Below, piece after piece: positions 4,292 to 54,085 of a stretch of DNA of 64,000 nt. The first letter of the stretch is position 1; the number at the start of each line of letters is the position of its first letter. Where the stretch lies: contig JAFVGW010000034.1 of the NCBI GenBank assembly GCA_017474765.1, forward strand, positions 22,502 through 86,501, given 5' to 3'. The stretch is from Salinivirgaceae bacterium. Lineage in GTDB: Bacteria; Bacteroidota; Bacteroidia; Bacteroidales; SZUA-534. The notes beneath the pieces were generated by a model. It searched no databases, was not told the DNA's origin, and was given only the letters and a program-made list of their open reading frames with translations. The position numbers were made by a program, and so were the translations under genes.

Positions 4292-4380
4292 ACTGAAGGC
4301 GTGAAGGATTGAATAACTGAAGGATTGAATGCGTGAAGGACTGATTGAATGAATCACCGAACAAACTGACATTCAATCAC
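4291..4380. repeat. 8-nt periodic word array (CTGAAGGN/TTGAATNN units) filling the convergent spacer between ccsBA and the acyltransferase gene
   Basis: Read in 8-nt units it gives ctgaaggc gtgaagga ttgaataa ctgaagga ttgaatgc gtgaagga ctgattga atgaatca ccgaacaa. Positions 4308-4329 are an exact reverse-complement match to 54037-54058. Confidence 0.8.
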
Positions 4381-12113: not shown

Positions 12114-13505
12114 GTGGGAAAGACACTATTTGACAAGATTTGGGACTCGCACGTCGTTCAGGTTATCCCCGACGGGCCAACCCAACTCTACATCGACCGT
12201 CTGTATGCTCACGAGGTGACTTCACCCCAAGCATTCGACACTTTGCGCGACAAGGGAATCAAGGTTTTCCGCCCCGAGCAGGTCGTGGCAATGCCCGACC
12301 ACAACACGCCGTCGGACCAACAGGAGGTCATCAACGACCCGATTGGCCGCAAGCAGGTGGAGACGCTCGCCCGCAACTGCGCTGAATTCGGCATCCGCCA
12401 CTTTGCAATGGGCACCAAGGACAACGGCATCATCCACGTGGTGGGCCCGGAGAAAGGCCTGTCGCTGCCGGGAATGACCATCGTCTGCGGCGACTCACAC
12501 ACATCAACTCACGGTGCTGTGGGCGCTTTGGCAATGGGCATCGGCACAAGCGAGGTGGCCGAGGTGCTGGCTAGTCAGTGCATCCTTCAGAGCAAACCGA
12601 AAACAATGCGCATCAATATTGAGGGCGAACTGCAGAAAGGCGTGGTTGCCAAGGATATAGCGCTTTACATTATGGCCAAAATGACCACTTCGGGTGCAAC
12701 CGGATACGCTGTTGAATATGCCGGCTCAACCATCCGCAACCTGTCAATGGAGGGCCGCCTGACGCTCTCTAACCTGTCGATTGAAATGGGTTCGCGCGCC
12801 GGTATCATCGCGCCCGACGAGACAACCTTCGCCTACCTGAAGGGCCGTGAGTATGCGCCCAAAGGTGCAGAGTGGGACAAGGCTGTTGCTTTCTGGCGCA
12901 CGCTGAAGAGCGACGACGACGCTGTCTTCGACAAGGAGATTACCTACCGCGCTGAGGACATTAAGCCGCGCATCACCTACGGAACAAACCCCGGTGCTGG
13001 AATCGCCATCGACGAGACCGTGCCCGTGCTCGACGGAATGAGCGACGCCGAGAAGGCTCAACTGACTGTGCAACTGAACTATATGCAGTTCAAACCTGGG
13101 CAGAAACTCGAGGGTACACCTGTGGATTACTGCTTCCTGGGCGCCTGCACCAACGGCCGCATCGAGGATTTCCGCGCCTTTGCATCGGTTGTGAAGGGCA
13201 GGAAGAAATCGCCGAACATTGTGGCGTGGCTGGTTCCGGGCTCGTGGCTTGTGCGTCAGCAGATTATCGACGAAGGCATCGACAAGGTTCTTGAAGAAGC
13301 CGGATTCGAGTTGCGCCTGCCGTCGTGCTCATCGTGCCTGGCCATGAACCCCGACAAGGTGCCCGCAGGCAAGTTGGCCATCTCGACATCGAACCGCAAC
13401 TTTGTCGGCCGTCAGGGCCCCGGCGCCCGCACCGTGCTGGCATCGCCGCTCGTTGTCGCCGCAAGCGCAATTACTGGCGTGATTACTGACCCGAGAAAAT
13501 TGTAG
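12114..13505 (+). CDS. leuC: 3-isopropylmalate dehydratase large subunit
   Basis: Aconitase-family motifs: [21 protein letters not shown] and [11 protein letters not shown]...CSSCLAMN (Fe-S cysteines). It has a GTG start. Confidence 0.92.
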
Positions 13506-13528
13506 TTTGAAACGATAACTAATTCTCG

Positions 13529-13554
13529 CACAGATAAACACAGATAACACAGAT
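13529..13554. repeat. Three direct CACAGAT heptamers, left flank of the GxxExxY gene
   Basis: CACAGAT occurs at 13529-13535, 13539-13545 and 13548-13554, ending 4 nt before the ATG at 13558. Confidence 0.85.
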
Positions 13555-13557
13555 TTT

Positions 13558-13968
13558 ATGTATTTTATAGACAGCGAAGAGGCAAAACAAGATTATCTGC
13601 ATAAAGAACTGACCGAGAGTGTCATTCGTGTTTTTTATGAAGTTTATAATACGTTGGGATATGGTTTCATTGAAAATGTTTACCAAAATTCTATGTATTT
13701 TGCTTTGCAAGACGCTGGTTTTGAGTGTGAAGTGCAAAAAGATATTGACGTCTTTTACAAAAACAAGAAAGTTGGCAGTTATCGTGCCGATATAATCGTA
13801 GACGATACGTTACTTCTTGAGTTAAAGGCCGTTAGTGAGTTAAATGAATCTCATAAACGGCAATTGTCAAATTATCTGAAAGCGACAAAATTTGAAGTAG
13901 GATTGCTGCTGAACTTTGGTGAGCGCCCACAAATTAGGCGTTGGATATATACTAATGATAATAAATAG
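13558..13968 (+). CDS. GxxExxY family protein (PD-(D/E)XK nuclease-like fold)
   Basis: 136 aa with the family hallmark GYGFIENVY (GxxExxY) and a downstream ...YRADIIVDDTLLLELKAV core. It is inserted between leuC and leuD on the same strand. Confidence 0.8.
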   Translation: MYFIDSEEAKQDYLHKELTESVIRVFYEVYNTLGYGFIENVYQNSMYFALQDAGFECEVQKDIDVFYKNKKVGSYRADIIVDDTLLLELKAVSELNESHKRQLSNYLKATKFEVGLLLNFGERPQIRRWIYTNDNK

Positions 13969-13970
13969 AA

Positions 13971-14005
13971 ATCTGTGATAATCAGTGTCATCTGTGTCAT
14001 CAGTG
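13971..14005. repeat. Four inverted heptamers (ATCTGTG/ATCAGTG), right flank of the GxxExxY gene
   Basis: ATCTGTG at 13971 and 13990, and ATCAGTG at 13981 and 13999. These are the reverse complement of CAC(A/T)GAT. The array starts 3 nt after the TAG stop. Confidence 0.85.
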
Positions 14006-14025
14006 CGAATTAAAAAACTAAAGAA

Positions 14026-14649
14026 ATGAAACAAAAATTTAATGTAATAAAATCGACGTGTATTCCGGTTGCGATTGACAACTGCAATACCGACCTGATT
14101 ATTCCGGCGCGCTACCTGGCGAGCACCACTCGCGACCCGAAATTCTTCGGCGACGCCTTTATGCACGACCTGCGCTACGACGCTGACGGTAAGCCGGTTG
14201 CCGGATTTGTTATGAACCAACCCGAATTTTCGGAGGCACCGCACGAAGGCTGCCACGAGATTATCGTGGGCGGACAGAACTGGGGCTCGGGCTCGAGCCG
14301 TGAACACGCCGCCTGGGCCATCGCCGGCTACGGCATCCGCGTGGTCATCTCGTCGAGTTTCGCCGACATCCACCGCAACAACCTGCTCAACTGCTTTGTG
14401 CTGCCGGTGGTGGTGAGCCGCGAGTTCCAACAGGAGTTGTTCGACTCTATCGCCAAAAATCCGCAAACCATTGTTACTGTTGACGTTCCGAATCAGACCG
14501 TGACCAACGAGGCCACCGGTCACTCGGAGAAGTTCGAAATCAACAGCTACAAGAAACACTGCCTTGTCAACGCACTCGACGACATCGACTATCTGCTGAG
14601 CGTTCAGGACAAGACCGAAGCGTTTGAGAAGACGGCGAAAAAGTGGTAA
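14026..14649 (+). CDS. leuD: 3-isopropylmalate dehydratase small subunit
   Basis: Aconitase swivel-domain motifs: NTDLIIPARYL and GQNWGSGSSREHAAWAIAGYGIRVVISSSFADIHRNN. Confidence 0.9.
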   Translation: MKQKFNVIKSTCIPVAIDNCNTDLIIPARYLASTTRDPKFFGDAFMHDLRYDADGKPVAGFVMNQPEFSEAPHEGCHEIIVGGQNWGSGSSREHAAWAIAGYGIRVVISSSFADIHRNNLLNCFVLPVVVSREFQQELFDSIAKNPQTIVTVDVPNQTVTNEATGHSEKFEINSYKKHCLVNALDDIDYLLSVQDKTEAFEKTAKKW

Positions 14650-14746: not shown

Positions 14747-15289
14747 ATGCCTGCAGAAGTGGAAAAATGGTATAAGGCAGTAACCAAAGATGATGTCATC
14801 TATCTCTTCAAGGGAGAGGTTACCGACCAGCTGATTGCTCAGTCTCTTGACATTATTGAGCGTCAGTTGGAGTCTACGCCATTGCCCATTCGCAAGAAAA
14901 TATACAATGTTCTTGTTGAATGCCTACAGAATCTGTACCATCATTCTGCCACCTGCCCAATCGAAAAAGAACGAGAATTCTGCGGAAGGGTTGGAGTTTG
15001 TCTGCTGTCGGAGCATGAGGGGCACTACCATGTGGTCACGGGCAATTTTGTCGAACCGCGTCAAAAAGAATTCCTCACCAAGCATCTTGACAAGATAAAC
15101 TCTCTTGACAGAGACGGACAAAAAGAGATGTACAAAGAGATTCTCGACAATCAGACTTTCTCCGAAAAAGGTGGAGGTGGATTGGGGATGGTTGACATTG
15201 CAAGAAAATCAGGCAGCAGGTTGAATTATAATTTCATTAACTGCGGCAGTGATTATAATTTTTTTACTTTAGATGTTACTTTTAATTGA
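14747..15289 (+). CDS. SiaB-like GHKL-fold protein kinase (partner-switch kinase)
   Basis: 180 aa. Start taken at MPAEVEKWYK because the upstream part of the ORF overlaps the leuD end and the promoter box. It has a C-terminal glycine-rich ATP-lid-like box EKGGGGLGMVDIARKSG. It is paired with a DUF1987/SiaC-like gene 23 nt downstream. Confidence 0.6.
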   Translation: MPAEVEKWYKAVTKDDVIYLFKGEVTDQLIAQSLDIIERQLESTPLPIRKKIYNVLVECLQNLYHHSATCPIEKEREFCGRVGVCLLSEHEGHYHVVTGNFVEPRQKEFLTKHLDKINSLDRDGQKEMYKEILDNQTFSEKGGGGLGMVDIARKSGSRLNYNFINCGSDYNFFTLDVTFN

Positions 15290-15311
15290 ACAACTTATAT
15301 AAACAAATAAA

Positions 15312-15689
15312 ATGGATCCTATTTCTATTATCGGAACACCAAAGACTCCAACCGTTACATTTGAGTCGAATGGCAAACTTGAAATCAAAGGACGTTCAAT
15401 TCCTGAAAATTCGGTTGAATTCTACAAACCATTAGTTGACTGGCTTGAGCAATACCTCTCATCTCCCGCTCCACTGACTGAAGTTTCAATAAAACTTGAG
15501 TATTTCAACACAAGTAGCTCAAAGTGCATACTTGATGTATTCAAGAAATTGGAAGCTATCTACAAAAGTGGTAATGACGTCGTTATTCTTTGGCACTACG
15601 AAGAGGATGACGAAGATATGCTTGAAGCAGGAGAAGACTACCAGTCTATCATCAAGGTGCCGTTCAAGATGGTTGAAATGTCGGAATAA
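15312..15689 (+). CDS. SiaC-like (DUF1987) regulatory phosphoprotein
   Basis: 125 aa. The sequence is TPTVTFESNGKLEIKGRSIPENSVEFYKPLVDWLEQY...LEYFNTSSSKCILDVFKKLE, typical of the DUF1987 fold with a Thr/Ser phospho-site region (FNTSSSK). Confidence 0.7.
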   Translation: MDPISIIGTPKTPTVTFESNGKLEIKGRSIPENSVEFYKPLVDWLEQYLSSPAPLTEVSIKLEYFNTSSSKCILDVFKKLEAIYKSGNDVVILWHYEEDDEDMLEAGEDYQSIIKVPFKMVEMSE

Positions 15690-26658: not shown

Positions 26659-26747
26659 TGCGATGCCCTAATGGCACGCTTTTTGCCTATCGAAGCGGAA
26701 AATTTGAGTAAAGTTTAACAAGTAATGCTAAAAGCCTAACACTCTGG

Positions 26748-26790
26748 AAACTTAAAACTCAAAACTTCGATAACTTAAAACTTTAAACAT
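26748..26790. repeat. AACTT-word array (7-9-nt spacing) immediately upstream of fabD
   Basis: AACT(T/C) occurs at 26749, 26756, 26763, 26772 and 26779. The 14-mer ATAACTTAAAACTT at 26770-26783 recurs exactly at 27796-27809. Confidence 0.7.
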
Positions 26791-26792
26791 AA

Positions 26793-27677
26793 ATGAAAGC
26801 ATTTGTATTCCCCGGACAGGGGTCGCAATTTGTGGGTATGGGCAAGGACCTGTACGACAATTCGGCTTTGGCCAAAGAACTTTTCGACCGCGCAAACAAA
26901 ATTCTCGGCTTCGACATCACAAGCCTGATGTTCAGCGGCACCGACGACGATTTGAAACAGACAAGAGTAACGCAACCCGCCGTTTTCCTGCACTCGGTAA
27001 TAATGGCTAAAGTGCTGGGCGACAAGTTTAAACCCGATATGACCGCAGGCCACTCACTTGGCGAATTCTCTGCTTTGGTGGCTGCCGGCGCTCTGTCGTT
27101 CGACGATGGTCTGACATTGGTTTCGAAACGTGCGCAGGCAATGCAGAAGGCTTGCGAGCTGAATCCATCAACAATGGCGGCCATTATTGGTATGGAAGAT
27201 GCTGTTATTGAGCAAGTTTGCTCTGAAATCGACGGCATTGTTCCGGCCAACTACAACTGCCCCGGACAATTAGTTATTTCGGGCACCAACGAAGGCATCG
27301 ACAAGGCTATTGCCCGATTCACCGAGATGGGCGCCAAACGCGCGCTGAAGTTGTCGGTGAGCGGCGGTTTCCACTCGCCAATGATGGAACCGGCCCGCGC
27401 CGAACTTGAGAAAGCCATCAACGAAGTGTCGTTCTCGGCACCTGTTTGTCCTGTTTATCAAAACGTTACAGCAAGCCCAGTCACCGACCCTGCTGAAATA
27501 AAGAAAAACCTTGTGGCACAGCTCACGTCGCCTGTCCGCTGGACGCAGACAATGCAGAATATGATTGCCAACGGCCTGACAGAGATTGTTGAAGTTGGTC
27601 CTGGTGCTGTTCTTCAGGGACTTATGCGCAAAATCAACCGCGACATCGCGGCAAGCGCAGCACAAAACGAACTTTAA
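26793..27677 (+). CDS. fabD: Malonyl CoA-ACP transacylase
   Basis: FPGQGSQFVGMG, active-site GHSLGEFSA and SGGFHSPMMEPA. Confidence 0.92.
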   Translation: MKAFVFPGQGSQFVGMGKDLYDNSALAKELFDRANKILGFDITSLMFSGTDDDLKQTRVTQPAVFLHSVIMAKVLGDKFKPDMTAGHSLGEFSALVAAGALSFDDGLTLVSKRAQAMQKACELNPSTMAAIIGMEDAVIEQVCSEIDGIVPANYNCPGQLVISGTNEGIDKAIARFTEMGAKRALKLSVSGGFHSPMMEPARAELEKAINEVSFSAPVCPVYQNVTASPVTDPAEIKKNLVAQLTSPVRWTQTMQNMIANGLTEIVEVGPGAVLQGLMRKINRDIAASAAQNEL

Positions 27678-27727
27678 AATTTAGGATTTTGAAGTTAGGA
27701 ATTAGGATTATTAGTATTAATATTGAG
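27678..27727. repeat. C-free TTAGGA-word array starting at the first base after the fabD stop
   Basis: The sequence is aatttaggattttgaagttaggaattaggattattagtattaatattgag, with no C in 50 nt. The 15-mer AGTTAGGAATTAGGA at 27693-27707 recurs exactly at 53875-53889. Confidence 0.75.
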
Positions 27728-27772: not shown

Positions 27773-27793
27773 TTTCTAAATTTGTAAACAAAC

Positions 27794-27838
27794 GTATAAC
27801 TTAAAACTTATAACTTCAGAACTTAAAACTTATATAAA
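27794..27838. repeat. AACTT-word array (7-8-nt spacing) immediately upstream of purB
   Basis: AACTT occurs at 27798, 27805, 27812, 27820 and 27827. The array shares an exact 14-mer with the one upstream of fabD. Confidence 0.7.
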
Positions 27839-37753: not shown

Positions 37754-37802
37754 AGGATTGAATGACTGATTGATTGAATGACTGATTGATTGAATGATTT
37801 TC
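37754..37802. repeat. 8/16-nt periodic array (TGATTGAATGACTGAT units) starting at the first base after the receptor stop
   Basis: Read in 8-nt units it gives ggattgaa tgactgat tgattgaa tgactgat tgattgaa tgatttt. It shares GATTGAATGA words with the 4291-4380 array. Confidence 0.8.
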
Positions 37803-37958: not shown

Positions 37959-38177
37959 ATGACACTTGCGGTTTTAGAAAAAAAGATGAGCAATCTTTCG
38001 GCTCAACAACAGCAAAATGTTGAGTCTTACATTGATTTCCTACTGTTTCAAAATTCAAGCAGAAAACAGGGAGCAAGAAAGCCGTTGGATTTCTCAAAAT
38101 ACAATACCGTAACTCACGTTTGGGCGGAAGATGCTCAAAGTGTTGTGGATAAACTGCGCTCAAATGACAGATTCTAA
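37959..38177 (+). CDS. DUF2281-like antitoxin (TA pair 1)
   Basis: 72 aa. The N-terminal LEKKMSNLSAQQQQNVESYIDFLLFQ resembles DUF2281 antitoxins. It overlaps the downstream PIN gene by 14 nt. Confidence 0.6.
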   Translation: MTLAVLEKKMSNLSAQQQQNVESYIDFLLFQNSSRKQGARKPLDFSKYNTVTHVWAEDAQSVVDKLRSNDRF

Positions 38178-38583
38178 AATATTTATCGATACCGCGCCGT
38201 TCATTTATCTGCTTGAGGATAACGAACAATTTTCTACAGCCGTTAGAAACAGATTTTCAGATTATTATATGGCTGAAGCGCAACTTTGCACGTCGCTTAT
38301 AACCTTTACTGAATATTGTGTGATTCCATACCGTCAGGGCAATACACAGAAAATTACTGATTTTGAGAATTTTATCGCTGATACAGGCATTTCTGTCATT
38401 CCGCTCACGGTTTCGATTGCAAAATATGCTTCGTTACTTCGCTCTAAATATCAAGGGATTAAGGCAATGGATGCTTTGCAATTGGCATTTGCCATTCAAA
38501 ACGAATGTGATGCTTTTCTCACTAACGACAAGCAACTACGGCAAATCCGTGAGATTAAAGCAGTTCTTGTAAGCGAGTTGTGA
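38164..38583 (+). CDS. vapC: PIN-domain toxin (VapC-like, TA pair 1)
   Basis: MTDSKIFIDTAPFIYLLE (first acidic residue), TFTEY, AMDALQLA and LTNDKQL together give the four conserved PIN acidic positions. Confidence 0.75.
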   Translation: MTDSKIFIDTAPFIYLLEDNEQFSTAVRNRFSDYYMAEAQLCTSLITFTEYCVIPYRQGNTQKITDFENFIADTGISVIPLTVSIAKYASLLRSKYQGIKAMDALQLAFAIQNECDAFLTNDKQLRQIREIKAVLVSEL

Positions 38584-39706: not shown

Positions 39707-40768
39707 ATGGCCACCTTCGACAGTTTCTTCAACAAAGTGCTTTTCAGTGGCAAGTATCGGATTGTCAGACATTTGCTGTTCCAGTTACCGATATTTATGA
39801 TGTCGCTCAACGCATTCGGTGCCGCCGACGGACGGCTTTTCGATTTCAGCCGCCAGAACGTGCCGCAGTGGCTGATAATGTACGTCTATCTGCTAACGTG
39901 TTGGTACGTAAATATTTACATACTAACGCCGCGATTCTTCTTCAAAGACAAGATTCTGAAATTTACCATTTCCACAATTCTGCTTTCGCTGCCGTTCGGT
40001 GTTTTGAAGGTTTTGTCGGAAGTTTTTATGAATTACTCTGTTCATAATTCACTGATTATAAGTTCTATAAACGTGGCGTCGAGTTTTCTGTCGATGGTTT
40101 TGCTGTCGGTGGCGCCAACCAGCCTGCTGCTGTTCCGACGGACGGCGCTGCAGAACCTGCGCAACCGCGAGTTGCAGGCCGCCACGGCGCAGACAGAGTT
40201 GAAAATGCTTAAGCAACAGATAAATCCGCATTTTCTGTTCAATATGATAAACAACGTCAACGTGCTTGTGCGCCGCGAGCCAGCGCAGGCGTCGGCGCTG
40301 CTCTACAGGCTCGAGGACCTAATCCGCTACCAGTTTGCCGACAGCCGCCGCGAGCGCGTCAACCTGCTGACCGACATACAGTTCCTTCGCGATTTTCTCG
40401 ACCTTGAGCAGGTGCGCCGCACGGGCTTCACTTATAAGATTGATACTGACGGCATTACCGACGACGTTGAGGTACCGCCGTTGCTTTTCATTCCGTTTGT
40501 CGAGAACGCCGTGAAGCACAACAGCGATGGCGAAAACGGCTCGTGGGTGAACATAAGTTTCTGTCTTGCAGACGGTTTGCTGACGTTTGTCTGCCAGAAC
40601 TCGAAACCCGCCGTTGCGCCCGTGCCCACCAAAGCCAGCGGCATTGGCCTGAAAAATATCAGCCGACGGCTCGAACTGCTCTATAGTAATCGGCACACGC
40701 TTTCCATTACCGATGAAAATGGTATATTTACGGTGAGGTTGAGGATTGAATTGAAAATTGAAAGTTGA
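39707..40768 (+). CDS. LytS/YehU-type sensor histidine kinase (His_kinase + HATPase_c)
   Basis: H-box LKQQINPHFLFNMINN, N-box PLLFIPFVENAVKHN and G-box GIGLKNISRRLELLY, with 5-6 N-terminal TM helices. Confidence 0.85.
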   Translation: MATFDSFFNKVLFSGKYRIVRHLLFQLPIFMMSLNAFGAADGRLFDFSRQNVPQWLIMYVYLLTCWYVNIYILTPRFFFKDKILKFTISTILLSLPFGVLKVLSEVFMNYSVHNSLIISSINVASSFLSMVLLSVAPTSLLLFRRTALQNLRNRELQAATAQTELKMLKQQINPHFLFNMINNVNVLVRREPAQASALLYRLEDLIRYQFADSRRERVNLLTDIQFLRDFLDLEQVRRTGFTYKIDTDGITDDVEVPPLLFIPFVENAVKHNSDGENGSWVNISFCLADGLLTFVCQNSKPAVAPVPTKASGIGLKNISRRLELLYSNRHTLSITDENGIFTVRLRIELKIES

Positions 40769-40790
40769 AAATTGACAATGAACAATTTAG
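40743..40790. repeat. 7-nt periodic TTGAAA(A/G) array spanning the kinase stop codon
   Basis: TTGA occurs at 40747, 40751, 40758, 40765 and 40772. The last 8 codons of the kinase (LRIELKIES) are encoded by the array. Confidence 0.65.
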
Positions 40791-40842: not shown

Positions 40843-41055
40843 ATGAGTTTCGATGTTCTTGAAAAAACCTATAAAACACTGACTGAACAGCAGCAGTTAA
40901 TGGTTTACGATTTGGCACTTTCGCTATCAAAACTCAATATGGCGCCCAAAAACGAGCCGACGTCGAAACGCGTGTTCGGCAAGTTCTCAAAAACTGCAAA
41001 AGCGCATTTTTCCGATAATTGGGAAATGTCAGAAGAAGAAATGTGCGGTTTATGA
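40843..41055 (+). CDS. DUF2281-like antitoxin (TA pair 2)
   Basis: 70 aa. The N-terminal LEKTYKTLTEQQQLMVYDLALSL parallels antitoxin 1. It overlaps the PIN gene by ATGA. Confidence 0.6.
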   Translation: MSFDVLEKTYKTLTEQQQLMVYDLALSLSKLNMAPKNEPTSKRVFGKFSKTAKAHFSDNWEMSEEEMCGL

Positions 41056-41453
41056 AATATTTAATTGACACACACATTCTTATATGGCTTGCCATATCGC
41101 CGCAAGAAATCTCAAAAGATGCGCTTCGCACATTGGAAAATCCTGAAAACAAGGTATTTGTATCCACCATATCTCTTTGGGAAATCGCAATCAAACTTTC
41201 AATCGGGAAATTAGATTTGCAAGGATTGAAAATATCTGATTTAGTGCAATTTTGCGATGAACAAAATATCAGGATAATTCAATTGCCATTGTCGGCTGTC
41301 GAACAATACCAAAGGCTTCCTAAAAAGGAAAACCACAAAGACCCTTTTGACAGATTGCTGATATCGCTCTCTATTGCAGATAATTACACTTTTGTCTCGG
41401 CCGACGGCAAAGTGGATTTGTACCGCGAAGACGGATTGGTTTATATAAACTAA
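41052..41453 (+). CDS. vapC: PIN-domain toxin (VapC-like, TA pair 2)
   Basis: MKYLIDTHILIW, SLWEIAIK, HKDPFDRLLI and FVSADGK give the conserved PIN acidic residues. Confidence 0.8.
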   Translation: MKYLIDTHILIWLAISPQEISKDALRTLENPENKVFVSTISLWEIAIKLSIGKLDLQGLKISDLVQFCDEQNIRIIQLPLSAVEQYQRLPKKENHKDPFDRLLISLSIADNYTFVSADGKVDLYREDGLVYIN

Positions 41454-50280: not shown

Positions 50281-50523
50281 TCTAAACCGTTGTTTCTATG
50301 GCACAAATTTAATCAAGATATTAACCATTTCACTTGTCGGATGTCAAATATGCAAGTTTTTAGAACACAGATTACACCAATTGAACGTAGTACACATTTT
50401 TTATTTGTAGTTAGATTGAATGAGTACTATTTCGTTGCTTTCCGCCTGTATTTGCAAATATACGAAGTTTTCACTTCCCATTCCGCCCTATCCTGCCAAC
50501 GTTGTTAAATTATTTGCAACCGA

Positions 50524-50576: not shown

Positions 50577-51592
50577 ATGGAAAAGAGCGAGATAACCATC
50601 TACGACATTGCCAAAGAGTTAGGCATCTCGGCATCGACCGTGAGCCGCGCGCTGAACAACAACGCAAGCGTGAGCCAGAAAACGCGGCAGGAAGTGGCCG
50701 ACTGCGCCGAGCGGCTCGGCTACCGCAACAACCCGTTTGCGGCAAACCTGCGCAAGGGCACAACCAACACCATCGGCGTGATTGTGCACCGCCTGGACAG
50801 CCTTTTCATATCGGCTTTCTTGAGCGGGGCCGAGAAAGCGGCGGCTTCGCGCGGATACCAACTCATTATTGTTCAGTCGTTTGAAGACTCGAACAAAGAG
50901 ATTGCCAACGCCAAGACAATGCTCGAAAAGCGCGTCGACGGACTGCTGGTGGCCGTGGCCAAAAACAGCGACTCGGTGGCGCACTTCAAGCCGTTCAACA
51001 ACTTCGGCATCCCGCTCGTCTTCTTCGACCGAATCATACCCAACCTTGACTGCGCAAGTTTCTCGATTGACAACTACTCGGCAGCCTGCAAAGTGGCCAC
51101 TCACCTTGCAGAGCAAGGCTGCCACGACATTGTGCACGCCACCATCGAATCGACATCAATGGTCTATCGCGAGCGCGAGCGCGGATTCAACGAGACGCTC
51201 GACAGGCTCGGAATCAAGCACCGCACACTACTAAGCCGAACATCGATTTTGAGTCGGGTAAGGATTTGGCCAACTCACTGAAAGCCAGCGGACAAATGCC
51301 CGACGGCGCGTTCTTCAGCAACGATATGTCGGCGGCGGGATTCATCACGGGCGTGCAGGATTTGGGAATGAAAGTGCCTGACGACGTGGCAGTTGTGGGC
51401 TTCAACAACGACATCACAAGCCGCATTGTGAAACCCAACCTGACAACCATCAACTACCCCGCCAACGAACTCGGCACAATGGCTACAAACCATATTATCG
51501 ACCACCTGCAAGGCGTTAACAATCTGTATGTTACCAATCAGGTGGTGCTGAAATCGGATTTGATTGTAAGAGAGTCATCTATAAGGCATTAG
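50577..51592 (+). pseudogene. LacI-family transcriptional regulator interrupted by a single frameshift near 51220
   Basis: The N-terminal HTH (ITIYDIAKELGISASTVSRALNN) and sugar-binding core are in one frame up to about 51225. The C-terminal part (TTKPNIDFESGKDLANSLKASGQMPDGAFFSNDMSAAGFI...) continues in another frame to 51592. The combined length of about 338 aa is typical for LacI. Confidence 0.75.
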
Positions 51593-51726
51593 GCAAAAGG
51601 CACTAGGCATTAGAGTGGAATTACGAATTATGAATTACGAATTACGATTCACCGATTAAACGATTAAACAATTCACCGATTCACCGATTAAACAATTCAC
51701 CGATTCACCGATTAAACGATTCACCG
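51584..51726. repeat. Back-to-back tandem arrays: nine 7-nt units then ten 8-nt units (ATTCACCG/ATTAAACR)
   Basis: The 7-mers at 51584-51646 are aggcatt aggcaaa aggcact aggcatt agagtgg aattacg aattatg aattacg aattacg. The 8-mers at 51647-51726 are attcaccg attaaacg attaaaca attcaccg attcaccg attaaaca attcaccg attcaccg attaaacg attcaccg. The array begins inside the last 3 codons of the LacI ORF. Confidence 0.9.
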
Positions 51727-51760
51727 AAAAGAAATAATTCACCAATTAAAATATAAGGCA

Positions 51761-53872
51761 ATGAGAATCAAAAATTTAACATCGATTACGTTTGTGGCGG
51801 CGGGGCTGCTGGCCTTGGCTTCGTGCTCAAACAACAACAACACGCGCACAACCATCGGCGACGACGGTCATCTGCTGTGGTTCAACTCGTTACAAATGGA
51901 AGCGCCCGCAACGCTCGGCCCGACGACCTTGCAGATTGCGCAGGAAAACATTGCAAAATATTGGAAATCAGACCGCAAGGTTGACCTGAAACTGAACAGC
52001 GAGGCTGCGGCCGAACTCGGAACGGAAGGTTTTGAAATCGATTTTTCGGGCGCAAACATCTGTGCGTCAGCCAATAGCGAAGTTGGTTTGCTCTACGCTT
52101 CGTACGAACTTCTGCGCCTTCAGGAAACTGACGGGCTGGCCGCTCAAAACGGCAAACTGACGAGCGTTCCCGCCTTCGAGCGCCGCGTGCTCAACCACTG
52201 GGACAACCTTGACGGCACTGTTGAGCGCGGTTTTGCGGGACATTCGCTTTGGAAATGGGACGAAATCAACGCCAACGACGTGGCCGCCAACAGCAATATC
52301 TACGCCGAGTACGCCCGCGCCAACGCGTCGGTGGGCATCAACGGCACGGTGCTGAACAACGTGAACGCCAACGCCGACATTCTGACCGAAGATTATCTGC
52401 TGAAAGTGAAGGCTTTAGCCGAAATTTTCCGCCCGTACGGACTGAAGGTCTATCTGTCGCTGAACTTTGCGGCGCCAAAACATCTGGCCAACCTTGAAAC
52501 ATCGGACCCGCTTGATAATGAAGTGGTTGCGTGGTGGAACGCGAAGGTGGCCGAAATCTACAAACTGATTCCCGATTTTGGCGGTTTTCTGGTGAAAGCC
52601 AACTCTGAAGGGCAGTCGGGACCGCAGGACTACGGCCGCACGCACGCCGACGGCGCCAATATGATTGCCAAAGCGCTCGAGCCGTTTGGCGGGATTGTTA
52701 TGTGGCGCGCCTTTGTGTACGACGCCAAAAGTCCCGATCGCGCAAAACAAGCGGTTGAAGAGTTTATGCCGCTCGACGGCCAATTTGCTGAGAATGTGCT
52801 GATTCAGATAAAGAACGGACCTGTGGATTTCCAACCGCGCGAGCCGTTCAGCCCGCTTTTCGGACAGTTTGAGAAGACACAGGCAATGGTTGAAGTTCAG
52901 ATAACGCAGGAATATCTGGGCCACTCGAACCATCTGGTTTACCTGCATCCAATGTGGAAAGAGTGCTTGGACTCAGACACTTACGAGCGTGGCGAAGGCT
53001 CAACCGTTGGCGCCATCACCGAAGGCAAGGTTATGCCATATAAATACACGGCCATTGCGGGCGTGAGCAACGTGGGCAACGACCGCAACTGGTGCGGACA
53101 CCATTTCGCGCAAGCAAACTGGTACGCCTACGGACGAATGGCGTGGAATCCCGAACTATCGTCGGAACAGATTGCAAATGAATGGCTTATGCAGACATTC
53201 TCGAAAGAGAAAAAGTTTGTTGAGCCTGTCGGGAAGTTAATGGTGGCATCGCGTGAAGCGTGCGTGAAATACGAAATGCCGCTCGGTCTGCACCACACCT
53301 TCAAGGGCCCCGACCACTACGGACCTGGCCCGTGGGACCGCTCAATCCGTCCCGACTGGGAACCTGCCTACTACCACAAGGCTGCCGCCGACGGCGTGGG
53401 TTTCGACCGCACAATGAATGGCTCGGGCGCCGTGGCACAGTATCACGAACCGCTGCAATCGCTCTACAACAACGTGGCCACCTGCCCCGAGAACCTGATT
53501 CTGTGGTTCCACCACTTGCCGTGGGACTATAAAATGAAGAGCGGACGCACGCTCTGGGACGAGTTGTGCCTGACCTTCCAGTCGGGCATCAACGACGCGC
53601 GCTCGTTCGTCGATATTTGGAACTCGGTTGAGCAATATGTTGACCACCAGCGTTTTGCCGACGTCAAGGCAAAACTTGAGCGCCAGGCGAAGGACGCCAT
53701 CTGGTGGCGCGACGCGACAATCCAGTATTTCCAGCAATTCTCAGGAATGGCTCTGCCCGAGGGCTGCCAGCCGTTCCAGCAGAAACTCGAAAAACTTATG
53801 AAGTACCGCATCGGCATCACCAACTACGAGAATCCGAAGATTGAAACGCTGCCTGAGTACAAACTGGAATGA
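51761..53872 (+). CDS. aguA: Alpha-glucuronidase (GH67)
   Basis: Lipoprotein signal (LLALASC). The length and the conserved blocks resemble GH67: DDGHLLWF, NHWDNLDGTVERGFAG, FGGFLVKANSEGQSGP and EVQITQEYLG. The family assignment is from memory. Confidence 0.8.
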   Translation: MRIKNLTSITFVAAGLLALASCSNNNNTRTTIGDDGHLLWFNSLQMEAPATLGPTTLQIAQENIAKYWKSDRKVDLKLNSEAAAELGTEGFEIDFSGANICASANSEVGLLYASYELLRLQETDGLAAQNGKLTSVPAFERRVLNHWDNLDGTVERGFAGHSLWKWDEINANDVAANSNIYAEYARANASVGINGTVLNNVNANADILTEDYLLKVKALAEIFRPYGLKVYLSLNFAAPKHLANLETSDPLDNEVVAWWNAKVAEIYKLIPDFGGFLVKANSEGQSGPQDYGRTHADGANMIAKALEPFGGIVMWRAFVYDAKSPDRAKQAVEEFMPLDGQFAENVLIQIKNGPVDFQPREPFSPLFGQFEKTQAMVEVQITQEYLGHSNHLVYLHPMWKECLDSDTYERGEGSTVGAITEGKVMPYKYTAIAGVSNVGNDRNWCGHHFAQANWYAYGRMAWNPELSSEQIANEWLMQTFSKEKKFVEPVGKLMVASREACVKYEMPLGLHHTFKGPDHYGPGPWDRSIRPDWEPAYYHKAAADGVGFDRTMNGSGAVAQYHEPLQSLYNNVATCPENLILWFHHLPWDYKMKSGRTLWDELCLTFQSGINDARSFVDIWNSVEQYVDHQRFADVKAKLERQAKDAIWWRDATIQYFQQFSGMALPEGCQPFQQKLEKLMKYRIGITNYENPKIETLPEYKLE

Positions 53873-54085
53873 GGAGTTAGGAATTAGGAGTTAGAAGTTA
53901 GAAGTTAGGATATGAAAATGGTGTTGGGTGTTGGGTGTTAGTTAATTACGAATTTTGAATTACGAATTACGACCACTGACTGAAGTCTGTTGTCCGTAGT
54001 CTGAAGTCCAAAACTAAACAATTCACAGATTCACCCTTCAATCCTTCAGTTATTCAATTAGTCAGTTAATTATCAATTAATTATA
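53873..54085. repeat. Composite word-array spacer between aguA and uxuA (7-nt units, several modules)
   Basis: The first module is ggagtta ggaatta ggagtta gaagtta gaagtta gga..., then tgttggg tgttggg tgttag. Together these are C-free for 71 nt. Next come aattacg aattttg aattacg aattacg and ctgaagtc..ctgaagtc. The last module is cacagattcacccttcaatccttcagttattcaattagtcagttaattatcaattaatta. The spacer shares exact 15-, 16- and 22-mers with arrays at 27693, 51632 and 4308. Confidence 0.85.

What the first reader, a model, noticed from the sequence alone, without database searches (positions are those of the whole stretch)
13527..14007. GxxExxY (PD-(D/E)XK-like) gene inserted inside the leuC-leuD operon and flanked by inverted heptamer arrays
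leuC and leuD are normally adjacent. Here a 136-aa GxxExxY-family ORF sits between them on the same strand. Its left flank has three direct CACAGAT heptamers (13529, 13539, 13548) ending 4 nt before its ATG. Its right flank has four inverted copies (ATCTGTG/ATCAGTG at 13971, 13981, 13990, 13999) starting 3 nt after its stop. Heptamer arrays in inverted orientation, tightly hugging a nuclease-fold ORF, look like the termini of a minimal selfish cassette. The word CACAGAT also appears inside the aguA-uxuA array (CACAGATTCACCC, 54024-54036). That links this cassette to the intergenic word arrays. One hypothesis is that those arrays are landing pads for, or footprints of, such cassettes.
Basis: partly seen in the sequence, partly recalled or inferred. 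Interest (0 to 1): 0.6.

Follow-up and report, generated by a model that had tools for sequence, protein, structure and literature searches.

The report
Hairpin-flanked nuclease cassette inside leuCD
A small AT-rich nuclease gene, bracketed by mirror-image arrays of a conserved 7-base word, sits between two leucine-biosynthesis genes; relatives show it belongs to a widespread kind of come-and-go gene cassette, not found described in the searchable literature, and is not part of the operon.

Summary
A 136-aa GxxExxY (PD-(D/E)XK) gene (13558-13968) lies between leuC and leuD. It is hugged by 3 direct CACAGAT words on the left and 4 inverted ATC[T/A]GTG words on the right.

The arrangement is general. 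In 73 GxxExxY loci from other Bacteroidota and allies, the most enriched upstream 6-mers (ACAGAT, ACGGAT, CACGGA; 20-32x) are the exact reverse complements of the most enriched downstream ones. The word period is 9-10 nt. The ORF usually lies in sense between same-strand genes.

The leuC|leuD junction is a turnover hotspot:
- 26 of 54 distinct relatives have a 0-25 nt spacer.
- One strain with 99% identical flanks keeps only a solo right arm.
- Another carries a 60%-identical GxxExxY cassette.
- Another carries a four-helix-bundle ("23S rRNA IVS protein") gene with its own inverted word arms.

The ORF is under purifying selection, and cassette phylogeny disagrees with flank phylogeny.

Best reading: a promoter-less, site-faithful selfish cassette whose arms are cognate sites for its nuclease. 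It resembles free-standing homing genes, IVS elements and REPIN/RAYT. The mechanism is inferred, not shown.

The parts
12114..13505 (+). leuC (3-isopropylmalate dehydratase large subunit), upstream flank of the insertion site
   Evidence: NF004016 1.6e-210 and TIGR00170 3.1e-183; GC3 0.73
13506..13525 (+). Spacer after the leuC stop; contains degenerate word-like pieces (AAACGAT, AACTAAT). Homology between strains breaks at or just after the leuC stop.
   Evidence: Sequence; alignment of alleles
13526..13554 (+). Left arm: TCG plus three direct CACAGAT words at 13529, 13539 and 13548, spacing 10 and 9
   Evidence: The same arm is present in orthologues L001, L007 and L011. The word family is enriched 20-32x upstream of 73 GxxExxY genes.
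13558..13968 (+). GxxExxY ORF, 136 aa: a minimal PD-(D/E)XK nuclease with E39, D78, E88 and K90 invariant
   Evidence: TIGR04256 and PF13366; invariant columns; AlphaFold2 pLDDT 86 with best PDB fold match Cas4 SSO0001, E 1.2e-4; dN/dS 0.08 against L011; GC3 0.33
13971..14008 (+). Right arm: four inverted words, ATCTGTG / ATCAGTG / ATCTGTG / ATCAGTG (13971, 13981, 13990, 13999), plus CGA
   Evidence: The arms pair in the DNA and RNA folds. A homologous solo arm is all that remains in L094.
14009..14025 (+). A-rich leader to the leuD start. No terminator-like site in the region, so read-through into leuD is plausible.
14026..14649 (+). leuD (small subunit), downstream flank
   Evidence: NF002458 2e-56 and TIGR00171 1.6e-42

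Best explanation
This is a promoter-less, site-faithful selfish gene cassette. A minimal Cas4/RecB-like PD-(D/E)XK nuclease ORF (GxxExxY) sits in the loop between two inverted arrays of a conserved word (consensus ACAC-N-GAT, period 9-10 nt, 3-4 copies per arm). It is inserted in sense orientation into the leuC|leuD spacer and is transcribed with the operon.

Shown:
- The unit (ORF plus cognate arms) recurs across Bacteroidota and allies.
- It is gained, lost, decayed and replaced at this junction among strains whose flanking genes are 98-100% identical.
- Its phylogeny is discordant with the flanks.
- The protein is under purifying selection with an intact catalytic tetrad.

Inferred:
- The arms are the binding or cleavage sites of the, probably dimeric, nuclease.
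- The nuclease promotes copying of the cassette into the same junction of cassette-less or differently occupied chromosomes by recombinational repair, as in 'intronless homing' of free-standing homing endonuclease genes.
- The arms can additionally pair as ssDNA or RNA, so that the insert is looped out and does little harm to the host operon.
For: Generality:
- Of 73 loci, 28 have at least 2 left-type words upstream and at least 2 right-type words downstream, under a strict rule. Words average 1.6-1.8 per 60-nt flank against 0.2 in background.
- Unbiased 6-mer enrichment gives reverse-complementary top lists upstream and downstream.
- The period is 9 (97 cases) or 10 (37 cases).
- Complementarity between arms is 0.92-1.0 at core positions and 0.77-0.80 at non-conserved spacer positions.

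Specificity: in 378 kb of LeuD-anchored relatives, arrays of 3 or more words occur only at the three GxxExxY genes. Four-helix-bundle cassettes use other words.

Insertion and turnover: among 54 distinct junctions, 26 are tight, 13 have short spacers, 12 have 111-260 nt spacers (10 of these with strong inverted repeats), and 3 carry ORF cassettes. L094 has a solo arm, L102 is a decayed cassette, L095 carries another allele and L093 carries a four-helix-bundle gene.

Discordance: L001 against L095 shows LeuC 100% and LeuD 98% but GxxExxY 62%. L095's cassette is closest to L173's, at 78%.

Site fidelity: every homologue looked up, 63-97% identical, is at leuC|leuD. L059 and L067, whose LeuC is only 63-65% identical, also have the cassette there.

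Functional protein: dN/dS 0.08, invariant E39/D78/E88/K90 and a Cas4-like fold. Tandem-fused 250-270 aa relatives hint at a dimer.

Operon context: 56 of 74 loci have same-strand neighbours on both sides at short gaps, and there is no terminator here.

Cassettes nearly identical (0-0.4% different) occur between flanks 2-10% diverged, in three lineages.
Against: - No nuclease activity, DNA binding or target has been demonstrated.
- The 'cassette younger than flanks' signal comes from contigs retrieved by exact identity of the cassette protein. It is therefore conditioned on the focal locus, and ordinary recombination in flanks could produce it.
- Turnover at one junction can also arise from plain homologous recombination in leuC and leuD, with no active mechanism.
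- Four-helix-bundle cassettes show the same architecture without encoding a nuclease, so the arms need not serve a self-encoded enzyme.
- Classical homing endonucleases recognise the empty site, not repeats flanking themselves.
- In this window's clade no ORF-less ACNGAT hairpins were seen that could act as targets.
- A distant family member (38% identity) in a GC-rich viral contig has no arms, so the arms belong to a subfamily, not to all of PF13366.
Confidence: 0.5

Rival explanations
1. IVS-like RNA element. The arms exist to form a long double-stranded RNA stem in the leuCD transcript. RNase III cuts it, excising the cassette RNA and insulating the operon, as with ORF-bearing intervening sequences of 23S rRNA. 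Mobility is secondary. This is not exclusive of the best explanation.
For: - The MFE and centroid RNA folds of 13506-14025 pair the arms (z -3.5).
- The ORF lies in the loop, with start and stop codons at or inside the innermost words in many loci.
- An allele at the same site carries the four-helix-bundle '23S rRNA IVS protein' family.
- IVSs are bordered by complementary sequences, are cut by RNase III and are sporadic among strains (PMC4990558).
- The cassette is consistently in sense orientation within operons.
Against: - Mismatches between arms show no RNA signature: 52 G.U-type, 49 A.C-type and 87 transversions in 36 arm pairs.
- The central word position is complementary in only 58% of pairs, which often puts an A.A or T.T mismatch in the middle of each 7-bp helix.
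- The word sequence itself, not just complementarity, is conserved across phyla. A stem alone would not need that.
- The window's stem is three short helices with bulges, a poor RNase III substrate.
Confidence: 0.2
2. A cut-and-paste or MITE-like transposable element. The arrays are terminal inverted repeats carrying multiple transposase-binding sites (as at Tn7 or Mu ends), and GxxExxY is the excision nuclease.
For: - Inverted arrays with 3 words on the left and 4 on the right.
- ORF-less hairpins made of the same words, some in tandem, occur in other genera: L047, L052, L061, L062, L088.
- TnsA-type transposition nucleases share the PD-(D/E)XK fold (general knowledge).
Against: - No convincing target-site duplication.
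- No second copy in 64 kb.
- All close homologues are at one and the same junction.
- A 136-aa nuclease has no strand-transfer domain.
- The family is essentially absent from 2.9 million viral contigs.
Confidence: 0.1
3. A domesticated host gene. GxxExxY does something useful, such as repair, RNA turnover or defence. The flanking arrays are the ordinary short-period intergenic repeats of this lineage (STRR-like), which stabilise or couple operon transcripts.
For: - Strong purifying selection.
- Positions are stable across many Flavobacterium species.
- The window has many other word arrays in co-directional spacers.
- Cyanobacterial STRR hairpins sit between co-transcribed genes (PMC2670836).
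Against: - Patchy presence among near-identical strains, and replacement by an unrelated family at the same site.
- Foreign base composition.
- The words are specific to GxxExxY genes, not generic.
- No significant match to known defence systems.
Confidence: 0.12
4. Nothing special: chance repeats next to a hypothetical gene.
For: Short AT-rich words are common in this genome's spacers.
Against:: strong enrichment, mirror symmetry, conservation across phyla.
Confidence: 0.01

Closest known systems
Free-standing homing endonuclease genes (for example the seg/mob genes between conserved genes of T4-like phages; PD-(D/E)XK homing enzymes such as I-Ssp6803I). Named from general knowledge.
   Same: A small nuclease ORF inserted between conserved genes, in sense and without its own obvious promoter. 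Sporadic presence at one fixed site among close relatives. All stages of an invasion, decay and loss cycle are seen. The element's history is discordant with its flanks.
   Different: The host is a bacterial chromosome, not a phage, and the site is inside a biosynthetic operon. The gene is bracketed by inverted arrays of a conserved word, which homing genes do not have. Cleavage of the empty site is untested.
ORF-bearing intervening sequences (IVS) of 23S rRNA genes (Leptospira, Coxiella; S23p / four-helix-bundle ORF), PMC4990558
   Same: An ORF in the loop of a long stem made by complementary borders. Sporadic among strains and regarded as selfish. The same protein family (TIGR02436) occupies this very junction in strain L093.
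   Different: The host site is an mRNA operon spacer, not an rRNA helix. The cargo here is a nuclease. The arms are tandem word arrays. There is no RNA-specific wobble signature, and RNase III processing is untested.
REP/REPIN-RAYT systems (general knowledge)
   Same: A nuclease-type gene flanked by inverted copies of a short repeat. In several genera the same repeat also occurs as ORF-less, hairpin-forming doublets or tandems in intergenic DNA.
   Different: RAYTs are single-copy Y1 (HUH) transposase relatives. GxxExxY is a PD-(D/E)XK protein, and is multi-copy in many genomes (recalled, not tested here). In the window's own clade no ORF-less copies were found.
Cyanobacterial STRR (short tandemly repeated repetitive) heptamer hairpins, for example between hupS and hupL (PMC2670836)
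   Same: 7-bp-type words in tandem, in spacers between co-transcribed genes, able to form hairpins, function unknown.
   Different: A different phylum and different words. STRRs are not known to enclose ORFs. The arrays here are short (3-4 words) and stable in copy number across deep divergence.
Cas4 / RecB-family nucleases (PDB 4ic1 SSO0001)
   Same: Best structural match to the predicted fold, with the same catalytic motif class.
   Different: The match is modest (E 1.2e-4, TM 0.50, 22% identity). No Fe-S cluster domain, no CRISPR context, and half the size.

Membership tests
GxxExxY / PDDEXK_3 (TIGR04256, PF13366) | Profile score above the curated cut-off | tested here: met
   128.4 bits against 35; 135.2 bits against 22
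GxxExxY / PDDEXK_3 (TIGR04256, PF13366) | GxxExxY motif and the PD-(D/E)XK catalytic residues are conserved | tested here: met
   G36, E39, Y42, D78, E88 and K90 are invariant in 26 sequences
GxxExxY / PDDEXK_3 (TIGR04256, PF13366) | Restriction-endonuclease-like alpha/beta fold | tested here: met
   AlphaFold2 pLDDT 86, secondary structure HH-EEE-H-EE; the top PDB matches are Cas4 and lambda-exonuclease-like nucleases
Free-standing homing endonuclease gene | Presence/absence polymorphism at one conserved site among close relatives | tested here: met
   L094 is empty apart from a solo arm while its flanks are 99% identical; there are 26 tight junctions
Free-standing homing endonuclease gene | Element genealogy discordant with flanks, or co-conversion tracts | tested here: inconclusive
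   Discordance is clear. The low-divergence tract from about -85 to +531 comes from a sample conditioned on an identical cassette protein.
Free-standing homing endonuclease gene | The enzyme cleaves the element-free allele | not testable with these tools
   Needs biochemistry
23S rRNA intervening sequence (IVS) | Located in a helix of an rRNA gene | tested here: not met
   It lies between leuC and leuD
23S rRNA intervening sequence (IVS) | Complementary borders form a stem that encloses the insert | tested here: met
23S rRNA intervening sequence (IVS) | Excised by RNase III | not testable with these tools
   There is no RNA-specific wobble bias, which neither proves nor excludes processing
Transposon / IS / MITE | Terminal inverted repeats | tested here: met
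Transposon / IS / MITE | Target-site duplication | tested here: inconclusive
   Only A-rich low-complexity similarity outside the arms
Transposon / IS / MITE | Near-identical copies at different genomic sites | tested here: not met
   All contigs read for five close homologues (P0001, P0003, P0006, P0016, P0020), 54 in all, are at leuC|leuD. There is one copy in 64 kb.
REPIN-RAYT | A Y1/HUH transposase-like gene | tested here: not met
   The only family hit is PF13366
REPIN-RAYT | The flanking repeat also occurs as ORF-less hairpins dispersed in the genome | tested here: inconclusive
   Present in other genera: L047, L052, L061, L062, L088. Absent from the window and from 378 kb of its clade.
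Integron gene cassette | A single attC downstream of the ORF, next to an intI/attI platform | tested here: not met
   The repeats are on both sides and the neighbours are leuC and leuD
Known anti-phage defence systems (PADLOC) | Significant match to a defence protein model | tested here: not met
   Best hit is PDC-M36A at E 5.8e-4, partial
Rfam RNA families | A covariance-model match at or near the gathering score | tested here: not met
   Only sub-threshold generic hairpin (miRNA) matches

The most novel reading that the evidence does not exclude
GxxExxY nucleases with ACAC-N-GAT arrays, and four-helix-bundle ('IVS protein') genes with their own word arrays, are members of one undescribed class of bacterial mobile element: 'loop-ORF hairpin cassettes'. 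These colonise spacers inside operons and helices inside rRNA. The nuclease recognises its own periodic word arrays, as duplex or hairpin, to drive copying into a fixed site or into ORF-less hairpins. The short-period 'word arrays' that fill operon spacers in this and other lineages (STRR-like) are the arms and footprints of such cassettes.
Probability: 0.25. Interest if true: 0.85.

Novelty: new variant of a known kind. Interest (0 to 1): 0.7.

Why it matters
GxxExxY / PF13366 is a large family: 13,294 clusters at 50% identity match at E <= 1e-3. It has no known function and is mentioned in only three papers in the searchable literature.

Three results give a concrete, testable handle on what these genes are:
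- One subfamily travels as a unit with a conserved, mirror-symmetric word array.
- It occupies fixed spacers inside housekeeping operons.
- It turns over among near-identical strains, and is interchangeable with the '23S rRNA IVS protein' family.

These results also bear on two old puzzles: why ORF-bearing IVSs exist, and what short tandem word arrays in operon spacers are. If the nuclease reads a 9-nt periodic word, it could also be a new programmable-looking DNA-recognition mode. Practically, such cassettes are strain-level markers and a source of operon polymorphism in gut and rumen Bacteroidales.

Tried and rejected
1. Link through CACAGAT at 54024. It is a single hit at chance frequency. 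Scanning the window for ACNGAT-type clusters found only this element plus one doubtful fragment at 50366.
2. RNA-specific selection on the stem. G.U-type mismatches (52) are no more common than A.C-type (49), so the RNA stem has no support beyond foldability.
3. Rfam. No family matched in the window region or in 11 loci with hairpins.
4. Sequence search of solved structures found nothing at E <= 1. Only the fold search gave Cas4-like matches.
5. PADLOC and PHROGs gave no meaningful hit for the nuclease. The four-helix-bundle allele hits Avd of DGRs.
6. Viral contigs gave one distant relative, without arms. Phage carriage is not supported.
7. A possible remnant of the L093-type arm (GAGTAAWG) near 26706 is a single match below expectation, so it was dropped.
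8. Target-site duplication. Only A-rich similarity was found; inconclusive.
9. 'Cassette less diverged than flanks'. I first read this as strong evidence of recent spread. I then realised those contigs were retrieved by exact identity of the cassette protein, so the trough is partly built in. It is kept only as supporting evidence. The unbiased LeuD-anchored loci and the discordance table carry the argument.
10. Sigma-70-type promoter matches inside the region were ignored: they are consensus matches only, and the scan does not cover other promoter types.

Full report
OBSERVATION

- leuC runs 12114-13505.
- The left flank reads CTCG CACAGAT aaa CACAGAT aa CACAGAT ttt.
- A 136-aa ORF follows (13558-13968).
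- The right flank reads a-a ATCTGTG ata ATCAGTG tc ATCTGTG tc ATCAGTG CGAA, then an A-rich leader.
- leuD runs 14026-14649.

The inverted repeat extends outward by three bases (TCG / CGA). The ORF is a GxxExxY / PDDEXK_3 protein (TIGR04256 1.7e-37; PF13366 1.7e-39), and the neighbours are bona fide leuC and leuD.

The arrangement is far from chance:
- The heptamer occurs 12 times in 64 kb against 8.0 +/- 2.5 expected, and five of those hits lie here.
- Tandem Repeats Finder reports both arrays.
- The arms fold together both as DNA (z -5.5) and within the full 520-nt RNA (z -3.5).
- The insert is compositionally foreign: GC 0.31-0.36 against 0.58-0.64, and GC3 0.33 against 0.73.

THE ARMS ARE A FAMILY FEATURE

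A scan of one genome per species with an alignment of relatives gave 80 loci. They come from Flavobacterium, Bacteroides, Prevotellaceae, Saprospiraceae, Prolixibacteraceae, Ignavibacteria and a few MAGs of other phyla.

Printing the flanks shows the same picture again and again. Upstream are words of the type CACAGAT / CACGGAT / CGCAGAT / CACTGAT. Downstream are their reverse complements. The outermost word is often preceded by GGAA/GAAC, and the arms are locus-specifically complementary.

The numbers:
- Flanks carry 1.6-1.8 words per 60 nt, against 0.2 in background. 28 of 73 loci meet a strict 'at least 2 left-type upstream and at least 2 right-type downstream' rule.
- An unbiased 6-mer count puts CACGGA, ACGGAT, ACGCAG, ACAGAT and CACAGA at 20-32x upstream. 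Their exact reverse complements top the downstream list.
- The period is 9 (97 cases) or 10 (37 cases), with 2-4 words per arm.
- The innermost words often overlap the start codon (caCAGATG) and the stop codon (TAATCTGTG).
- Arm-to-arm complementarity is 0.92-1.0 at core positions and 0.77-0.80 at spacer positions that are not conserved between loci. It is only 0.58 at the central N.

So both the word and the mirror symmetry are maintained. In 378 kb of DNA from the window's own clade, collected without reference to GxxExxY, arrays of three or more such words occur only at the three GxxExxY genes present. A 38%-identical relative in a GC-rich viral contig has no arms. The arms therefore belong to this subfamily, not to all of PF13366.

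IT IS AN INSERTION, AND THE JUNCTION IS A HOTSPOT

A metagenome scan with the window's LeuD returned 80 loci with LeuD 79-100% identical. Among 54 distinct leuC|leuD junctions:
- 26 are tight (0-25 nt, often TAA-n-ATG);
- 13 have short spacers;
- 12 have 111-260 nt spacers, 10 of them with strong inverted repeats;
- 3 carry an ORF.

The closest strains are the most telling:
- L094 (LeuC 98.7%, LeuD 99.5%) has only a 45-nt spacer. That spacer is recognisably the right arm alone: ATCAGCG tt ATCTGT a ATCAGTG CGAA, followed by the leader.
- L095 (LeuD 99.5%) has a GxxExxY only 60% identical, with its own ACNGAT arms.
- L093 (LeuD 100%) has instead a 144-aa four-helix-bundle protein (TIGR02436, 6e-34), the '23S rRNA intervening sequence protein' family. 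It is flanked by inverted arrays of a different word, GAGTAAW / WTTACTC.
- L102 keeps the left arm and the first two codons (ATG TAT), then another palindromic element, then a right-arm remnant. It is a decayed cassette.

Aligning the alleles shows that homology breaks at the leuC stop and resumes at the leuD start.

Other relatives fill the same spacer with inverted arrays of quite different words: CGTCAATT / AATTGACG, ACGATAC / GTATCGT, AGGAGTTAA / TTAACTCC.

SITE FIDELITY AND DISCORDANT HISTORY

Every homologue I looked up (97, 75, 75, 66 and 64% identical) lies between leuC and leuD with the same kind of arms. Two loci whose LeuC is only 63-65% identical also have a GxxExxY there, with CGCAAAT / ATTTGCG words. 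Bacteroides-type genomes have one between leuD and leuA.

Cassette and flank genealogies disagree. L001 and L095 have LeuC 100% and LeuD 98% identical but GxxExxY 62%. L095's cassette is closest to that of L173 (78%), whose flanks are 84-90% identical.

Cassettes that differ at 0-0.4% of sites lie between flanks that differ at 2-10%, in three lineages. Those contigs were retrieved by exact identity of the cassette protein, however. This trough is therefore partly built in, and I treat it as supporting evidence only.

THE PROTEIN

The catalytic set E39, D78, E88, K90 and the GxxExxY motif are invariant. dN/dS is 0.08 against an orthologue with saturated dS. The AlphaFold2 model is confident (pLDDT 86), and its best solved neighbour is Cas4 SSO0001 (E 1.2e-4), followed by lambda-exonuclease-like enzymes.

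There is no solved relative by sequence and no defence-system match. The family has 13,294 clusters at 50% identity, some of them tandem fusions of two copies. 56 of 74 loci have same-strand neighbours on both sides at short distances, and there is no terminator here. The ORF presumably rides on operon transcription.

HOW IT MOST LIKELY WORKS

Shown: there is a unit, made of the ORF plus its cognate mirror-image word arrays. It sits in fixed operon spacers, is under selection as a protein, and comes, goes and is swapped among near-identical strains.

Inferred:
- The word, not just the pairing, is conserved. It travels with this protein family, while four-helix-bundle cassettes use other words. 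The arms are therefore most economically the recognition sites of the nuclease, probably a dimer.
- The site fidelity, patchiness, decay series and discordant history fit the life cycle of a free-standing homing gene, copied by recombinational repair into the same junction.

The arms can also pair, which would loop the insert out of single-stranded DNA or of the transcript. The RNA version (an IVS-like stem cut by RNase III) is attractive because of the four-helix-bundle allele and the literature on IVSs (PMC4990558). But mismatches show no wobble bias: 52 G.U-type against 49 A.C-type, with 87 transversions. The centre of each word is also often mismatched. A cut-and-paste transposon is unlikely, because no copy was found at a second site. 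I put about 0.5 on the homing-like, cognate-arm reading.

COMPARISON AND NOVELTY

The nearest known things are free-standing homing endonuclease genes, ORF-bearing rRNA IVSs, REPIN-RAYT systems and cyanobacterial STRR hairpins between co-transcribed genes (PMC2670836).

It fails a defining feature of each:
- it has flanking arrays, unlike homing genes;
- it is not in rRNA;
- it is not a Y1 transposase;
- it is not a bare repeat.

'GxxExxY' occurs in only three papers of the library, none about this. Rfam has nothing. I therefore rate it a new variant of a known kind, with a 0.25 chance that it marks a new class, 'loop-ORF hairpin cassettes', that also explains IVS ORFs and operon-spacer word arrays.

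The cassette idea, the prediction about four-helix-bundle genes and the existence of footprints hold. The specific link through CACAGAT at 54024 does not hold. 'Termini' in the transposon sense is not supported.

Noticed in passing
window 4294-4353; 26748-26793; 27679-27719; 27790-27832; 37756-37799; 40749-40779; 51583-51727; 53866-54084: Short-period (7-8 nt) tandem word arrays (AAACTTA, TTAGGAWT, GAATTAC, GATTCACC/GATTAAAC, AGGAGTT, GGTGTTG and others) fill spacers between same-strand or convergent genes. They are absent from the divergent, promoter-type spacers. The same word can recur at different spacers: AAACTTA before two start codons, and GAATTAC at both 51618 and 53944. They resemble cyanobacterial STRRs, and I know of no description for Bacteroidales.
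   Followed up: partly
L101, L106, L111/L114/L120/L129, L108/L110/L112, L168 (leuC|leuD spacers): Relatives fill the same junction with 140-250 nt hairpins whose arms are inverted arrays of other words: CGTCAATT/AATTGACG, ACGATAC/GTATCGT, and AGGAGTTAA/TTAACTCC (the last uses the same word as window 53872-53910). Others carry GC-rich GGGGAGGG-type palindromes. They have the architecture of the cassette arms but no ORF.
   Followed up: partly
L093 391-946: A four-helix-bundle protein (TIGR02436; also matches Avd of diversity-generating retroelements). It sits at the leuC|leuD junction of a strain with 100% identical LeuD and is flanked by inverted GAGTAAW arrays. Other four-helix-bundle genes, in L046, also have inverted word arms hugging the ORF.
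   Followed up: partly
window 37959-38583 and 40843-41453: Two AT-rich toxin-antitoxin-like pairs: a ~70-aa 'QQQ..DFLL'-type antitoxin-like ORF plus a 133-150 aa ORF with a PIN-like N-terminus. They are inserted between GC-rich sensor-kinase/LytTR genes, each just downstream of a word array. NCBIfam gave no hit for the larger ORFs. Relatives carry PIN and HepT/NTP_transf_2 pairs next to the leu genes.
   Followed up: partly
window 14747-15689: A SiaB-family kinase / SiaC-like pair follows leuD here, whereas leuA follows leuD in close relatives (L001-L004). The leu cluster is therefore rearranged in this strain.
   Followed up: no
L047 650-900 and 1415-1532; L052 2785-3700; L061; L062 3400-3514: In Saprospiraceae, Prolixibacteraceae and other genomes the ACNGAT words also form ORF-less hairpins, sometimes in tandem (94-nt units in L052), next to GxxExxY genes. 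In some loci the gene lies between two complete hairpins rather than inside one.
   Followed up: partly
proteins P0121-P0125 and others: GxxExxY relatives of 250-270 aa contain two copies of the domain in tandem. This suggests the functional unit is a dimer.
   Followed up: no
window 50366-50392: GAACACAGATTACACCAATTGAACG in a divergent spacer looks like an isolated fragment of a left arm. It could be chance.
   Followed up: no
window 13480-13505 and L059/L067 leuC ends: The conserved LeuC C-terminus I-T-D-P-R is encoded by ATTACNGAYCC, which itself contains a word-like ACNGAT about 15-20 nt before the stop. Whether this helps to target the junction is unknown.
   Followed up: no
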